A stretch of DNA of 64,000 nt from Escherichia coli (GCF_024223415.1 NZ_CP100500.1); one strand, 5' to 3'. Positions 26,907 to 30,985 are shown, counted from the first letter of the stretch. The notes: generated from the sequence alone by a model not told the origin. Translations and numbers: made by a program.

Positions 26907-27500
26907 ATGGTTAACAATTTTGCTGATGAAAAATGGATTCCGGTTCCTGTTGCTCCTTACGGCAACGCTTACCTCGTTAGTTCGGCTGGACGCATTCGCG
27001 GTGTTAATCGTGTAGCTGAATCAGAATTTTTTATTCGTCAAATCCGTGGAGTGATCCTCAAAGGGAGGGTGCGTCGGGATGGATATAAGACCGTTAACCT
27101 GAGCTACAAACGAAATCGTCAAACATTTGCCATTCATCGCCTGGTAGCGCTGGCTTTTTGCGACAACCCACACAATCACACTGAGGTTAATCACAAAGAC
27201 GGCAACAAACTAAATAACCACGCATCCAATCTGGAGTGGGTTAGCCACAAAGAAAATATTCAGCACTCAATTCTTACAGGACTCAATAAATCGCAGGGGG
27301 CTGACAACAAGCAATTTAAGGGCCTAATTGTCGCTACAAATCTTTCGACCGGGGAGGAGCAAACTTTTTGCGGGAAAAAGGCGCTAATTAGTGCTGGGTT
27401 TGATCACGGTAGTGTTTATGCGGTTATTGCTGGAAGAGTAAAGTCTCATCGTGGCCACTATTTCAAGCGCCTCCCACTGAACCATGAGGAGGCAGCTTAA
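26907..27500 (+). CDS. HNH endonuclease
   Basis: Start MVNNFADEKWIPV... with GGAGGTG RBS; HNH core EVNHKDGNKLNNHASNLEWVSHKEN. Confidence 0.7.
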   Translation: MVNNFADEKWIPVPVAPYGNAYLVSSAGRIRGVNRVAESEFFIRQIRGVILKGRVRRDGYKTVNLSYKRNRQTFAIHRLVALAFCDNPHNHTEVNHKDGNKLNNHASNLEWVSHKENIQHSILTGLNKSQGADNKQFKGLIVATNLSTGEEQTFCGKKALISAGFDHGSVYAVIAGRVKSHRGHYFKRLPLNHEEAA

Positions 27501-29155
27501 TGCTGAATATTGAACCGAATTTTGCACAGGAGCGAGCGCTAAACATGTTGCGCCGTGACTGGAAGGCAAACGACACCTTCATGGTGTATTCGCCAACCGG
27601 TAGCGGTAAAACGGGTCTGGCAGCCTTCATAGTTGCTGGTTTTGTCAGCCGTGGTATGCGCGTTCTGTTCTGTGTTCCGTACACCATCCTGATTGGTCAG
27701 ACGGCTAATCGGTTCGTGCAGTATGGTTTACCTGGAGATGAAATCGGTTATATCTGGGCGGATCACCCTAACTACGATCCGGACCGGAAAATTCAGATTG
27801 CCAGCGCTGACACGCTTATTCGTCGTGTTTTTCCTGAAAATATCGATCTGCTGATTATCGACGAAGCGCACCTGCGTAAAAAACGCATCCTGAAGGATAT
27901 CGAACGTCTGCGCGGCAAAGGCGTAAAGGTGATTGGCCTGTCGGGTACTCCGTTTTCTCCGTTCCTGGGCAAATACTATGACCGACTGATTAAGCCGACC
28001 ACCATCGGCGAGTTAATCCAGCGTGGCGATCTGAGTAAATACGAATTTTACGCGCCAACTAAGCCGGATCTGAAAGGTGTTAAAACCACATCTTCGCTTG
28101 AGTACGGCCGCGATTACAACGAAACACAGCTGGCTGAAATCATGTGCGGCTCTACGCTGGTGGGCGACATCGTACAGAACTGGCTGGAGAATGGTCGGGA
28201 TCTACCTACCATCGCTTTCTGCGTCAACGTAGCTCACGCCAATTATCTGACAATCCAGTTTAACCTGGCGGCTGTTAACGCTGAGGTAATGACCGCCGAC
28301 ACTCCGGTAGATGAGCACCAGACCATCATTCACCGCTTTGAAACCGGTGCAACGAAAATCATCGTTAGTGTGGGCGTTCTGGTAGCCGGATTCGATAGTG
28401 ACGTTCGTTGCATCATCTACGCCAGACCAACAAAAAGCGAAATTCGCTGGTTGCAGGCACTCGGGCGTGGACTTCGCACCGCACCGGGTAAAGAGTCCTG
28501 CCTTATCTTCGATCACAGCGGCACCGTGCACCGTCTGGGTTATCCGGATTCAATCGAGTACGACGATCTTCCCGGTAAGTCTGACGGCATGGAGGAAAGC
28601 ACGCGCCGCGCAGTTGAGGAACGGGCCGAAAAATTGCCACATGAATGCCCTCAATGCCACTACATGAAGCCAGCTGGCGTCTATGTTTGCCCGAAATGTG
28701 GACACAAGCCGCTGCGAGGTGAAGACGTTGATACTGACACTAGCCGCAAACTTAATAAGCTGGGTAAAAATCAGCATCAGTCCACGAAGGCAGAGAAACA
28801 GGCCTGGTGGAGTCAGATCAAATTTTATCAGCGCCAGCGTGCCTCACTGGGGCGTCCAGTCAGTGATGGATGGTGCGCTCACACTTTCAGGGAGAAATTC
28901 GGTGAATGGCCTGATGGGTTGAGTAGTTTCCCGATGGAAATAAGCCCAGAGGTAAGTAACTACATCAGACACAAGCTGATCCGGTTTGCTAAAGGTCGTG
29001 AACGGACACGGAGGATGACGAAAAACTCATCCGAAGTGCTTTCTCTGCCACTGGTTGTTGGTGGCCGGTATGTTCCACCGGAAGAAAGTGAGGCTTGGCG
29101 CATTATGCAGGCAAAGCAACAACTCCAGAAAAATATAAACAGTCTGAGTCAGTAA
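27500..29155 (+). CDS. SF2 DEAD/DEAH-type helicase (phage replication)
   Basis: Walker A SPTGSGKT, DEAH-like IIDEAH, motif VI QALGRGLR; C-terminal Cys4 (CPQCH...CPKCGH). Confidence 0.8.
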   Translation: MLNIEPNFAQERALNMLRRDWKANDTFMVYSPTGSGKTGLAAFIVAGFVSRGMRVLFCVPYTILIGQTANRFVQYGLPGDEIGYIWADHPNYDPDRKIQIASADTLIRRVFPENIDLLIIDEAHLRKKRILKDIERLRGKGVKVIGLSGTPFSPFLGKYYDRLIKPTTIGELIQRGDLSKYEFYAPTKPDLKGVKTTSSLEYGRDYNETQLAEIMCGSTLVGDIVQNWLENGRDLPTIAFCVNVAHANYLTIQFNLAAVNAEVMTADTPVDEHQTIIHRFETGATKIIVSVGVLVAGFDSDVRCIIYARPTKSEIRWLQALGRGLRTAPGKESCLIFDHSGTVHRLGYPDSIEYDDLPGKSDGMEESTRRAVEERAEKLPHECPQCHYMKPAGVYVCPKCGHKPLRGEDVDTDTSRKLNKLGKNQHQSTKAEKQAWWSQIKFYQRQRASLGRPVSDGWCAHTFREKFGEWPDGLSSFPMEISPEVSNYIRHKLIRFAKGRERTRRMTKNSSEVLSLPLVVGGRYVPPEESEAWRIMQAKQQLQKNINSLSQ

Positions 29156-29156
29156 G

Positions 29157-30125
29157 ATGAAAACAGCAGATGCAGCGAAAGGCCGTTGGCCTGAAATATT
29201 AGAGCACTTCGGCTTGCCGCCGATAACAGGAAAAAATCACTTCAAGGGTGAATGCCCGGTATGCGGTGCACGTGGCAAGTTCCGAATTGATGACCGCGAC
29301 GGTGCAGGAACGTGGATCTGTGTATGTGGTAGTGGCGATGGTATGAAACTTGTCACCCTGACACAGGCGAAGCCATTTAACGAGATTTGTACCGAAATAG
29401 ACCGCCTGATCGGTAATGATTACCAACGGGTTAAAATCCCGGTAACCAGCAGCGCCACCAGCTTACGCAAACGGGTATTGAGCAAGTTTTCAAAACTGGA
29501 GGCACTGCGTGGTACATCCGGCGCCGCGTATCTTAATTCTCGTGGAATATTCAGTCTTCCTGCTGAGGCGATCAGGTTCAATGCCAGGCAGAGACACAAC
29601 GGGAGTGTGTTCCAGTCTCTTTATTCACTTGCTACGGACGATAAAGGGGAGCTGTGCTATCTGCATCAGACCCTGCTTGATGGTGATAAAAAAGCAGATA
29701 TCGGTAGCAGTGCAAAGCGCCTCAAATCCCTGCAGGAAGATAACTATCTGGATCACGCTCGTTCTGTAGCTATCCGCATGTTTCCTGTCGCCAGCACTCT
29801 GGGTATCGCCGAAGGCATCGAAACAGCGCTGTCAGCGCACCAGATTTATAACGTGAACACCTGGGCAACCATTAACAGCGGCTTTATGAAAAAGTTCCGC
29901 GTACCAGCTGGTGTCCTGCACCTGATTATTTTTGCTGACCGTGACGAGAACAGCGCCACCGGGCTGGCTGCGGCTTGCGAATGTGCTCATGCCAATCTGA
30001 TGGCAAAGAATGACCTGCAGCGCGTGAGCGTGTACTGGCCGGATCACGATGATTTCAACAATATGCTCATGAACGGTGATCAGGTTCGAGAGCTGGTTTT
30101 CCATAAGAAAAAGGCGGTTGCGTAA
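29157..30125 (+). CDS. phage/plasmid-type primase (zinc-binding N-terminus + TOPRIM)
   Basis: CPVCGARGKFRIDDRDGAGTWICVCG zinc motif; TOPRIM-like IFADRDEN. Confidence 0.7.
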   Translation: MKTADAAKGRWPEILEHFGLPPITGKNHFKGECPVCGARGKFRIDDRDGAGTWICVCGSGDGMKLVTLTQAKPFNEICTEIDRLIGNDYQRVKIPVTSSATSLRKRVLSKFSKLEALRGTSGAAYLNSRGIFSLPAEAIRFNARQRHNGSVFQSLYSLATDDKGELCYLHQTLLDGDKKADIGSSAKRLKSLQEDNYLDHARSVAIRMFPVASTLGIAEGIETALSAHQIYNVNTWATINSGFMKKFRVPAGVLHLIIFADRDENSATGLAAACECAHANLMAKNDLQRVSVYWPDHDDFNNMLMNGDQVRELVFHKKKAVA

Positions 30126-30985
30126 TGCGTACTGATAACAACGAACATAAAGCACTATTCACCATCCCGACGGCAGCGTACAGCTCCGCCCTCGCAAACA
30201 TCAAGCCCCTGCCAGAGCAACGGAGAATCACCGGGCATAAGCAGACTGATGCTTATCTTTGGGTGCTGGAGGTTATCCGTCTGAACGAACCCGCACATCT
30301 GGATGCTGCTGAGGCTGCGCTGGTGAAAATTAAAATTTCCCCAAAAGAGGCCCAGGAACGCTATTCGCGTTATCTGCTGGCGAATGGTGGCGATCCTTTC
30401 CAGATTGCTTTCGGTACCATCGGCATGGATAACCCGGCACAGGCAATCAGTATCGCCCGGGAGAATATCAAAAAAGCAGCATCAGTCAGGGCTACGTTTG
30501 GTAGCTATGAAGCAGCACTCGAAGATGTGGAAGCCGAGCGAGTGATCAAGTCTTCCCAGAAATTTATCGACGATCATCTCTGGGGCTGGACTGCAGCCGA
30601 GAAGAAAGCGGGCAGAATTGACGGCATCCGTATGAATGAAATTGATGATCAGCGTCGTGCATATGTTGATGGCTATCGTGATGTACTGCCAGAGCCTCAT
30701 ACATTGTCAGACGTAGTTCGTGAGTTTGTTTACTGGGACTGGCTCTACAGTGTTCGCCACACTGCAACTAAAGAACAGGGCGATGAGTTTGGTTACTTTG
30801 AGCATCACGAATCGGTATATGACCGCGAGCGCTACCTTGAAAAATTGCTGATGACCATCAAACCGGTGACACGGGCTGAAGCCGTGGAGGTGTGTCGTTG
30901 GTTTTTGGCAAGCGGAAAGGGCGAATATATGAAAGACAATAGCGCTGCGGTCATACTCAATCTGGTTGGGGAGTGTGAGCAATGA
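30125..30985 (+). CDS. hypothetical phage protein (286 aa)
   Basis: ATGA-coupled to the primase gene; no family recognised. Confidence 0.5.
   Translation: MRTDNNEHKALFTIPTAAYSSALANIKPLPEQRRITGHKQTDAYLWVLEVIRLNEPAHLDAAEAALVKIKISPKEAQERYSRYLLANGGDPFQIAFGTIGMDNPAQAISIARENIKKAASVRATFGSYEAALEDVEAERVIKSSQKFIDDHLWGWTAAEKKAGRIDGIRMNEIDDQRRAYVDGYRDVLPEPHTLSDVVREFVYWDWLYSVRHTATKEQGDEFGYFEHHESVYDRERYLEKLLMTIKPVTRAEAVEVCRWFLASGKGEYMKDNSAAVILNLVGECEQ

What the first reader, a model, noticed from the sequence alone, without database searches (positions are those of the whole stretch)
27500..30985. Replication module is helicase–primase type with an uncharacterised 286-aa third gene
In the position where lambda carries O and P, this prophage has an SF2 helicase (with a C-terminal Cys4 motif) and a P4-like zinc-finger/TOPRIM primase. 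These are followed, translationally coupled, by a 286-aa protein I cannot assign. Its tight coupling suggests a replication or anti-defence accessory factor.
Basis: partly seen in the sequence, partly recalled or inferred. Interest (0 to 1): 0.3.

Follow-up and report, generated by a model that had tools for sequence, protein, structure and literature searches.

The report
Known helicase–primase module plus orphan gene
This E. coli prophage replicates with an already described helicase–primase gene pair, and the unassigned 286-residue gene after it belongs to a widespread, uncharacterised phage family that sits between replication genes and the late-gene switch whatever the replication machinery, so it is not a dedicated partner of this helicase and primase.

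Summary
Three ORFs sit at exactly the stated coordinates. They are a RadD-like SF2 helicase with a Cys4 motif, a P4-alpha-like zinc-ribbon/Toprim primase, and a 286-aa protein joined to the primase by a TAATG overlap.

The helicase–primase pair is not new. It is the Fels-1 / "Eru1" replication module, 66% and 58% identical to Eru1A and Eru1B of Stx phage TL-2011c. The same trio is annotated in Salmonella phage Fels-1 (STM0902 is the third gene).

The 286-aa protein matches no Pfam or NCBIfam family. It is a full-length member of PHROG 6204 (function unknown). A confident AlphaFold model (pLDDT 91.7) is all-alpha, with no meaningful match in the PDB or BFVD.

Synteny argues against a helicase–primase-specific role:
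- Related helicase–primase phages lack the gene (TL-2011c, YP3) or keep only its C-terminal half (Klebsiella phages).
- Homologues follow six kinds of replication genes: O+DnaB, lambda P, a D5_N primase, Toprim+DUF927, a fused primase-helicase+SSB, and the SF2 helicase/Toprim primase seen here.
- In 71 of 77 close relatives the gene's stop overlaps or abuts the start of antiterminator Q.

About 62% of family representatives carry an N-terminal DNA-binding domain that the window protein lacks. My best guess is a DNA-associated regulatory or adaptor protein of the nin-equivalent slot. Its function is unproven. Interest is low to moderate.

The parts
25295..25987 (-). CI-like repressor (HTH + S24 peptidase); marks the immunity region upstream of the module
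   Evidence: Pfam Peptidase_S24 7.4e-17, plus HTH_19, HTH_3 and Phage_CI_repr
26056..26394 (+). Cro-position YdaS-family HTH gene; first gene of the rightward early operon
   Evidence: Pfam YdaS_toxin 1.6e-14. The only promoter-like site on the + strand ahead of the module lies at 26056-26084, inside this ORF as called.
26357..26650 (+). Conserved 97-aa gene (phrog_852, function unknown) that travels with the helicase–primase pair
   Evidence: phrog_852 7.5e-42. tblastn finds it upstream of the helicase in Fels-1, Klebsiella KPP5665-2, Yersinia YP3, TL-2011c and nearly all loci among the 80 that extend far enough upstream.
26868..27500 (+). HNH/NUMOD4 homing endonuclease; a mobile insertion just upstream of the helicase
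   Evidence: Pfam NUMOD4 and HNH_3. TAATG overlap with the helicase start. Present in only 3 of 80 related loci.
27500..29155 (+). SF2 (DEAD/DEAH, RadD-like) helicase with a Cys4 zinc motif after the helicase core; an Eru1A / Fels-1 STM0901.1n homologue
   Evidence: Pfam ResIII, DEAD and Helicase_C. 66% identity to Eru1A over 503 aa. Best solved relative is RadD, 6jde, E 6.7e-20.
29157..30125 (+). Zinc-ribbon + DUF7146 + Toprim primase; an Eru1B / Fels-1 STM0901 homologue, related to the N-terminal primase part of P4 alpha
   Evidence: Pfam. 58% identity to Eru1B. 26% identity, E 5e-20, to P4 alpha residues 8-262.
30125..30985 (+). 286-aa protein of PHROG 6204 (Fels-1 STM0902 homologue). All-alpha, no fold relative found. 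It is a version without the N-terminal DNA-binding domain that most of the family carries.
   Evidence: phrog_6204 1.5e-182, full length. No Pfam or NCBIfam match. AF2 pLDDT 91.7. No fold matches. Family architecture.
31105..31476 (+). rusA (Holliday-junction resolvase), interrupted by a +1 G in the homopolymer at 31190-31195. It separates the 286-aa gene from Q in this prophage.
   Evidence: Pfam RusA on the 3' part. Alignment with the intact 123-aa gene in L014 shows the extra G.
31457..31891 (+). Antiterminator Q; end of the early-right operon
   Evidence: Pfam Phage_antitermQ 5.8e-52

Best explanation
Shown: the region is the early-right operon of a lambdoid E. coli prophage. Its order is cro-like gene, phrog_852 gene, (HNH insertion), SF2 helicase, Toprim primase, 286-aa gene, (frameshifted rusA), Q. 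The helicase and primase form the known Fels-1/Eru1-type replication module.

Shown: the 286-aa gene is not a specific component of that module. It is a member of PHROG 6204, a conserved and purifying-selected family of temperate-phage and island genes. The family occupies the slot between the last replication gene and the antiterminator Q (the lambda ren/nin position), whatever replication machinery lies upstream.

Inferred mechanism: in most of the family, the roughly 280-residue all-alpha core is tethered to DNA by an interchangeable N-terminal DNA-binding domain. The domain may be a sigma-70-region-4-like HTH, a ribbon-helix-helix-like segment, ParB-N + HTH, or Bro-N. The core therefore most likely acts as a protein-binding effector or adaptor domain working on phage DNA. 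Possible targets are the regulation of early or late gene expression, or replication/recombination complexes.

Inferred for this window: the Fels-1-type version begins exactly at the first conserved core motif and has lost the DNA-binding domain. It would act through protein–protein contacts alone, made at the same time as the replication proteins and Q. It is an accessory, not an essential, factor.
For: Known module: the same trio followed by Q is annotated in Fels-1. The helicase and primase are 66% and 58% identical to Eru1A and Eru1B (PMC8044961).

Family membership: phrog_6204 matches full length, and all 51 aligned homologues match it.

Real, constrained gene: dN/dS is 0.07-0.17. In Salmonella the STM0900-STM0903 operon was among those picked out as responding to a mutagen (PMC2225428).

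Not specific to helicase–primase:
- TL-2011c has NinB-NinG-NinH in the slot.
- Yersinia phage YP3 goes straight from primase to Q.
- Klebsiella phages keep only residues ~135-286.
- Homologues follow O+DnaB (L012, L166), lambda P (L101, L167), a D5_N primase in an int-AlpA island (L006), Toprim+DUF927 (L106 group), a fused primase-DUF927 helicase + SSB (L164), and a second SF2 helicase (L102 group).
- One and the same protein (P0122) follows O+DnaB on one contig and lambda P on another.

Link to Q: in 71 of 77 close loci the next gene starts within -12 to +4 bases of the stop. It is one of two unrelated antiterminator types, 58 of the 271-aa type and 13 of the 115-140-aa type. A homologue also precedes Q in a prophage with no helicase–primase pair (L008-L011).

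Separate evolutionary module: dS jumps from 0.30 in the primase to 0.98 in the 286-aa gene between the window and Fels-1. One lineage of the gene pairs with six primase lineages.

DNA-binding-domain architecture: 49 of 79 full-length representatives carry an N-terminal extension of 35 aa or more. These extensions match Sigma70_r4_2, HTH_23, HTH_28 and similar families. ParB-N and Bro-N fusions are seen in P0188, P0222 and P0154. The nearest 50% representative, P0121 (52% identity), has the HTH, while the window protein starts at the 'DNxxHxxLFxIP' motif.

Structure: confident all-alpha model with a basic N-terminal half (median pI 8.9) and an acidic C-terminal half (median pI 4.9).
Against: No experiment or homology ties the core domain to any activity.

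The positional argument cuts both ways. Recurrent placement right after replication genes of many kinds could mean a generic replication-linked function rather than mere slot occupancy.

Within close E. coli relatives the gene is almost always present with the helicase–primase pair (96 versus 101 of 5426 genomes). This would also fit a lineage-specific partnership.

Swappable DNA-binding domains are also typical of antitoxins and partition proteins, not only of regulators.

The window protein has no DNA-binding domain, so family-level inference may not transfer to it.

Neighbour analysis of the distant loci used crude ORF calls in GC-rich DNA, and many neighbours have no Pfam match.
Confidence: 0.4

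Rival explanations
1. One reading: the protein is a dedicated accessory subunit of the helicase–primase replisome, such as a loader, an origin-recognition factor or a bridge between helicase and primase. On this view it is translationally coupled to the primase so that the complex assembles in the right proportions.
For: TAATG overlap with the primase. All 80 close viral loci keep the order helicase–primase–gene. In E. coli genomes the gene co-occurs with the module in 96 versus 101 genomes. The module has no recognisable origin-binding initiator. Distant homologues also follow primases or helicases of other families.
Against: Eru1 phage TL-2011c, Yersinia YP3 and Escherichia phage Fostie have homologous helicase–primase pairs without it. 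Klebsiella phages keep only the C-terminal half. The identical protein P0122 follows O+DnaB or lambda P, which have their own initiator and loader. A homologue sits before Q with no helicase–primase nearby. There is a recombination breakpoint at the primase/gene junction, and alleles reassort freely. Overlapping start/stop also joins the mobile HNH gene to the helicase.
Confidence: 0.12
2. The protein is a general replication- or recombination-linked factor that works with any phage replisome. It could be a recombination mediator or replication-restart adaptor like the nin-region proteins NinB/Orf, NinG or RusA, or a recruiter of a host replisome component such as SSB, the beta clamp or Pol III.
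For: The gene recurs immediately downstream of six kinds of replication genes. TL-2011c has NinB-NinG in the same slot. rusA lies next to it in the window and two genes downstream in L012, and an SSB gene lies next to P0121. DNA-binding-domain fusions imply action on DNA.
Against: No similarity to any recombination or replication protein by sequence or fold. RusA appeared in only 1 of 101 downstream neighbours of distant homologues. Conserved gene order in temperate phages would produce the same adjacency without any functional link. Sequence-specific HTH or RHH domains are unusual for recombination mediators.
Confidence: 0.2
3. The protein is an anti-defence or exclusion factor (a moron of the nin region, like lambda ren), expressed early to neutralise a host or prophage immune system or to exclude other phages.
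For: The slot is variable and accessory. The C-terminal half is acidic (pI about 4.9-5.2) and occurs alone in Klebsiella phages. The fold has no characterised relative. The gene is dispensable in related phages.
Against: Strong purifying selection and conservation down to about 25% identity across Proteobacteria do not look like arms-race evolution. Most family members carry sequence-specific DNA-binding domains, which is atypical for known anti-defence proteins. The only PADLOC match is noise (PbeC, 14 bits). No anti-defence library was available to test against.
Confidence: 0.15

Closest known systems
Salmonella phage Fels-1 early-right operon (STM0901.1n helicase, STM0901 primase, STM0902 hypothetical protein, Q)
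   Same: Same gene order and the same three proteins: 82%, 95% and 83% identity by tblastn. The same phrog_852 gene lies upstream. The third gene is also 286 aa.
   Different: In Fels-1 the third gene overlaps Q directly, whereas the window has a frameshifted rusA in between. The window has an HNH homing endonuclease upstream of the helicase. The Q genes are of different families (271-aa type versus PF06530 type).
Eru1 replication region of Stx phages (TL-2011c: eru1A, eru1B, eru1C; Llarena et al. 2021, PMC8044961)
   Same: Homologous SF2 helicase (66% identity) and Toprim primase (58% identity), in the same position next to cI/cro.
   Different: The third gene eru1C is DUF1367/NinB and is followed by NinG and NinH. 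It is unrelated to the 286-aa protein.
Satellite phage P4 alpha protein
   Same: The zinc-ribbon + Toprim primase domain is homologous (26% identity, E 5e-20).
   Different: P4 alpha fuses the primase to an SF3 (D5-type) helicase and an origin-binding domain in one 777-aa chain. Here the helicase is a separate SF2 protein.
E. coli RadD (YejH) SF2 DNA-repair helicase
   Same: RadD is the best solved-structure relative and the best NCBIfam match of the helicase. The phage helicase carries a Cys4 motif after its core; RadD is said to carry a zinc motif there too, but that is recalled from memory and was not checked.
   Different: The NCBIfam score of 92 bits is far below the equivalog cut-off of 720, and the PDB match covers only the C-terminal RecA-like domain. 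The phage protein is a distant paralogue used for phage replication, not RadD.
Lambda ren/nin-region genes and modular phage regulatory proteins (Roi, Rha, Ant)
   Same: Same position, between the replication genes and Q. Same design of a swappable N-terminal DNA-binding domain plus a C-terminal effector domain. One family member carries Bro-N, and ORF6N/Rha genes are neighbours in distant loci.
   Different: No sequence or fold similarity to any of them. The analogy is positional and architectural only, and parts of it rest on my own knowledge of lambda, HK022 and P22.

Membership tests
Fels-1 / Eru1-type helicase–primase replication module | SF2 DEAD/DEAH-box helicase homologous to Eru1A | tested here: met
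   Pfam ResIII, DEAD and Helicase_C; 66% identity over 503 aa
Fels-1 / Eru1-type helicase–primase replication module | Toprim-domain primase homologous to Eru1B, encoded directly after the helicase | tested here: met
   Pfam Zn_Ribbon_Prim, DUF7146 and Toprim_3; 58% identity over 320 aa; one-base spacer
Fels-1 / Eru1-type helicase–primase replication module | Located next to, and divergent from, the cI repressor, in place of lambda O and P | tested here: met
   S24 repressor at 25295-25987 (minus strand), cro-like gene at 26056-26394; no Phage_rep_O or lambda P match in the region
Fels-1 / Eru1-type helicase–primase replication module | Third gene eru1C = DUF1367/NinB (as defined for Eru1) | tested here: not met
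   The 286-aa protein has no Pfam match. TL-2011c gp32 is NinB. The window matches the Fels-1 variant of the module, not Eru1 in the strict sense.
Fels-1 / Eru1-type helicase–primase replication module | The genes actually drive phage DNA replication | not testable with these tools
   No replication assay is possible. The origin was not located: no iterons were found.
PHROG 6204 (uncharacterised phage protein family) | Full-length match to the family profile | tested here: met
   E 1.5e-182, residues 1-286 on profile positions 1-286; all 51 aligned homologues match
'Helix-turn-helix domain-containing protein' (name given by NCBI to close homologues) | A recognisable HTH DNA-binding domain in the protein | tested here: not met
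   No HTH family at E <= 0.01 in Pfam or <= 0.1 in NCBIfam. HTH matches occur only in the N-terminal extensions of other members, which this protein lacks.
Known lambda/P22 nin-region or replication proteins (NinB, NinG, NinH, RusA, O, P, DnaB/DnaC-like) | Sequence match to the curated family models | tested here: not met
   No Pfam, NCBIfam or annotated PHROG match for the 286-aa protein. No PDB sequence or fold match.
P4 alpha-type primase-helicase | Zinc-ribbon/Toprim primase domain | tested here: met
   BLASTP E 5e-20 to alpha residues 8-262
P4 alpha-type primase-helicase | Primase fused to an SF3 (D5) helicase and an origin-binding domain | tested here: not met
   The primase is only 322 aa with no D5 or DUF927 domain; the alignment stops at alpha residue 262
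Anti-defence protein | Homology to a known anti-defence family, or demonstrated inhibition of a defence system | not testable with these tools
   No anti-defence library is on offer. PADLOC (defence systems) gives only a 14-bit chance match.

The most novel reading that the evidence does not exclude
The roughly 280-residue core of PHROG 6204 is a new fold and a new kind of effector domain. Temperate phages and islands would tether it to their own DNA through swappable DNA-binding domains at the junction between replication and late-gene control. Possible roles are a factor that couples replication status to the early-to-late switch, or one that recruits or blocks a host protein on replicating phage DNA. 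The Fels-1-type version, which lacks the DNA-binding domain, would act in trans.
Probability: 0.2. Interest if true: 0.55.

Novelty: new member of a known kind. Interest (0 to 1): 0.25.

Why it matters
The helicase–primase (Eru1-type) replication region is carried by Stx phages of highly virulent EHEC and by many Salmonella and E. coli prophages, yet its mechanism is untested.

Showing that the third gene is not part of that machinery narrows what has to be explained. The helicase, the primase and perhaps the co-conserved 97-aa phrog_852 gene remain.

The third gene itself is present in about 2% of complete E. coli genomes and in many Salmonella, Enterobacter, Citrobacter and Klebsiella prophages. 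It is under purifying selection, has no Pfam family and has no fold relative in the libraries searched. That makes it a reasonable target for characterisation. Nothing here is surprising to a phage specialist, and no long-standing question hinges on it.

Tried and rejected
- **Sequence and profile searches against PDB.** These gave only chance hits, such as RelB at E 0.33 and a haemophore at E 0.045. I rejected them.
- **PADLOC.** The PbeC hit (14 bits) was rejected as noise.
- **Related-locus search with the full 51-sequence alignment.** It failed because no stretch was conserved enough. Two sub-alignments worked.
- **Origin of replication.** A search for iterons or an AT-rich origin in 25900-31500 found only two-copy chance repeats.
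- **Promoter and terminator scan.** Counts were at or below chance, and no clear terminator lies between the helicase and Q.
- **Internal duplication.** hhalign of the two helical halves gave 0.3% probability.
- **Allele co-inheritance of primase and the 286-aa gene.** The test was uninformative because the helicase and primase reassort just as freely.
- **Beta-clamp-binding motif.** I considered the conserved N-terminal 'HxxLFxIP' as such a motif. I rejected it because it fits the QL[SD]LF consensus only at LF, and AF2 places it in a confidently folded segment (pLDDT 83-91).
- **Literature.** A search for STM0902 found only an operon list. The Eru papers do not describe this gene.

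
Full report
**Observation.** The ORF list shows three consecutive + strand ORFs at exactly the reported coordinates:
- 27500-29155 (551 aa)
- 29157-30125 (322 aa)
- 30125-30985 (286 aa)

The first ORF matches Pfam ResIII, DEAD and Helicase_C, and phrog_16 'DNA helicase'. It has a CPQC...CPKC motif after the helicase core. Its best solved relative is the E. coli repair helicase RadD (6jde, E 6.7e-20). The NCBIfam RadD score (92 bits) is far below the equivalog cut-off of 720.

The second ORF carries Zn_Ribbon_Prim, DUF7146 and Toprim_3. It aligns with the N-terminal 262 residues of P4 alpha at 26% identity, E 5e-20.

The junctions are cagTAAgATG between helicase and primase and gcgTAATGcgt between primase and the third gene.

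Upstream lie an S24 CI-like repressor (minus strand) and a YdaS/Cro-like gene. Downstream lies antiterminator Q. The module therefore sits where lambda has O and P. The chromosomal flank is E. coli (bglX-dld-mdtQ-yehY-dusC, 100% identity).

**The helicase–primase module is already known.**
- Megablast of the region finds the same three genes in Escherichia phages phi467 (97%) and vB_EcoS-611R1 (95%), and in Salmonella phage Fels-1 (86%).
- Fels-1 annotates them as putative helicase (STM0901.1n), putative DNA primase (STM0901), hypothetical protein (STM0902, 286 aa) and then Q.
- Llarena et al. 2021 (PMC8044961) named the homologous pair in Stx phage TL-2011c eru1A and eru1B. They called such phages 'Eru1', as opposed to lambdoid O/P phages.
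- The window proteins are 66% and 58% identical to Eru1A and Eru1B over essentially their full lengths, including the Cys4 motif.
- A 97-aa gene of phrog_852 (26357-26650) is co-conserved upstream of the helicase in all these phages.

**The 286-aa protein.**
- It has no match in Pfam (E <= 0.01), NCBIfam (E <= 0.1) or PDB sequences.
- It is a full-length member of PHROG 6204, function unknown (E 1.5e-182).
- A word-indexed search finds 393 relatives. The closest are from E. coli, Salmonella, Enterobacter, Citrobacter, Leclercia and Atlantibacter. They are named 'hypothetical' or 'helix-turn-helix domain-containing protein'.
- An exhaustive search of 50%-identity representatives finds 136 clusters.
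- dN/dS against five relatives is 0.07-0.17, so this is a constrained protein-coding gene.
- AlphaFold2 on a 51-sequence alignment gives a confident model (pLDDT 91.7, pTM 0.85). The first ~38 residues are mostly extended, with one short helix, and about twelve longer helices follow.
- The two helical halves are not an internal duplication.
- The N-terminal half is basic (median pI 8.9) and the C-terminal half is acidic (median pI 4.9).

**Family architecture.**
- Of 79 full-length representatives, 49 carry an N-terminal extension of 35 aa or more, most often about 45 aa.
- These extensions match Sigma70_r4_2, HTH_23, HTH_28 and similar HTH families.
- Others have a basic 'AERQRRYR' segment followed by what I read, by eye, as a ribbon-helix-helix pattern.
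- P0188 and P0222 have what I read, by eye, as a ParB-type N-terminal domain plus an HTH. P0154 has what looks, by eye, like a Bro-N-type domain.
- The nearest representative, P0121 (52% identity), has the HTH. The window protein begins exactly at the first conserved core motif (DNxxHxxLFxIP).
- The window protein is thus a version of the family without the DNA-binding domain. The NCBI name 'helix-turn-helix domain-containing' is not justified for it.
- Klebsiella phages carry a 158-aa version. It keeps the N-terminal motif and the C-terminal half only.

**Synteny among close relatives.** In all 80 viral contigs encoding a relative at 85% identity or more, the order is primase then gene, preceded wherever the contig reaches that far by phrog_852 and the helicase.
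- In 71 of 77 loci with sequence downstream, the next ORF starts within -12 to +4 bases of the stop.
- That next ORF is an antiterminator of one of two unrelated types. 58 are of the 271-aa type: Fels-1's 271-aa gene in this position is annotated as Q, and PF03589 (Antiterm) marks the 260-271-aa genes downstream of the homologues P0153 and P0121. 13 are of the 115-140-aa type, which gives tblastn matches of 43-85% identity to the window's PF06530 Q.
- The gene is therefore coupled as tightly to Q as to the primase.
- The window is one of the few cases where rusA intervenes. Here rusA carries a +1 G in a G-run compared with the intact gene in L014.

In complete E. coli genomes the gene occurs in 96 of 5426, and the closely related helicase–primase pair in 101.

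**Synteny beyond close relatives.** Homologous helicase–primase modules exist without the gene:
- TL-2011c has NinB-NinG-NinH-Q after the primase.
- In Yersinia YP3, Q directly follows the primase.
- In Escherichia phage Fostie, the DNA match ends within the primase at the same point as in YP3.

Conversely, homologues of the gene follow quite different replication genes:
- O+DnaB (L012; L166)
- lambda P (L101; L167)
- a D5_N primase in an integrase-AlpA island (L006)
- a Toprim primase + DUF927 helicase (L106 group)
- a fused Zn-ribbon/Toprim/DUF927 protein followed by SSB (L164)
- another SF2 helicase (L102 group)

The identical protein P0122 is found after O+DnaB on one contig and after lambda P on another. 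A homologue also sits directly before Q in a prophage with no helicase–primase pair.

In the more distant, GC-rich loci the commonest neighbour is an S24 repressor 3-6 genes upstream on the same strand (27 of 62 loci). Integrases, Rha/ORF6N/Bro-N regulators or tail genes lie downstream. These contexts rest on crude ORF calls.

Between the window and Fels-1, synonymous divergence jumps from 0.30 in the primase to 0.98 in the 286-aa gene. One lineage of the gene is combined with six primase lineages. The gene is therefore a separately exchangeable module.

**Interpretation.** The shown facts are these:
- The gene is a conserved accessory gene.
- It occupies the slot between the replication genes and Q, equivalent to lambda's ren/nin region.
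- That position holds whatever replication machinery lies upstream.
- The gene is dispensable for related helicase–primase modules.

The same overlap also joins the mobile HNH endonuclease to the helicase.

What the protein does is inferred, not shown. Most of the family carries swappable sequence-specific DNA-binding domains. I therefore take the all-alpha core to be an effector or adaptor domain that acts on phage DNA, in regulation or on replication/recombination complexes. The Fels-1-type version would act through protein contacts only (confidence about 0.4).

The rivals are:
- a general replisome- or recombination-linked factor (0.2)
- an anti-defence or exclusion factor (0.15)
- a dedicated helicase–primase subunit (0.12)

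No iterons, internal promoters or terminators were found in the region. The genes probably form one transcription unit. In Salmonella the STM0900-STM0903 operon was among those responding to a mutagen (PMC2225428).

**Verdict.** The third gene is a member of a known but uncharacterised family. The new points from this work are:
- The gene is not specific to the helicase–primase module.
- It is usually coupled to Q.
- It is a truncated form, without the DNA-binding domain, of a DNA-tethered family.
- Its fold has no detectable relative in the PDB or BFVD.

Interest is low to moderate (0.25). It is a reasonable candidate for experimental characterisation, but not a surprise.

Noticed in passing
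window 31105-31476 (G-run 31190-31195): rusA is split by a +1 G in a six-G homopolymer. The otherwise identical stretch in viral contig L014 has five Gs and an intact 123-aa RusA. This is either a pseudogene or a sequencing/assembly error.
   Followed up: yes
window 26868-27500: An HNH/NUMOD4 homing endonuclease is inserted immediately upstream of the helicase, with a TAATG overlap. It is present in only 3 of 80 related loci, so it is a recent mobile insertion into the replication operon.
   Followed up: partly
window 26357-26650; L004 (TL-2011c) 18674-18922: A 97-aa gene of phrog_852 (function unknown) is co-conserved with the helicase–primase pair in Fels-1, Klebsiella, Yersinia and Eru1 phages. 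It is unannotated in the TL-2011c record. It is a better candidate than the 286-aa gene for a true third component of the module.
   Followed up: partly
window 29157-30985 versus L001 (Fels-1) 5611-7436: Synonymous divergence between the window and Fels-1 jumps from 0.30 in the primase to 0.98 in the 286-aa gene. This indicates a recombination breakpoint at or near the gene junction.
   Followed up: partly
window 32075-33178 (minus strand) and 33777-34009: An OmpC/NmpC-like porin gene lies on the opposite strand. A tRNA cluster (Met-CAT, Arg-TCT, Thr-TGT) lies between Q and the lysis genes. These are typical lambdoid morons.
   Followed up: no
window 26691-26734: An imperfect 18-nt inverted repeat, followed by a C/G-rich hairpin-like stretch, lies in the 218-bp non-coding gap between the phrog_852 gene and the HNH gene. 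It could be a terminator or part of an origin. No iterons were found.
   Followed up: partly
L006 6001-7083 (metagenomic contig SRR13394436_2715): A 360-aa homologue of the 286-aa protein lies in an integrase-AlpA-D5_N primase island next to a type I restriction-modification cargo. The family is therefore not restricted to lambdoid prophages.
   Followed up: no
P0164 (1324 aa): A long protein with seven tandem repeats scored E 2.7e-18 against residues 153-218 of the query. It looks like a repeat-driven artefact rather than a family member.
   Followed up: no
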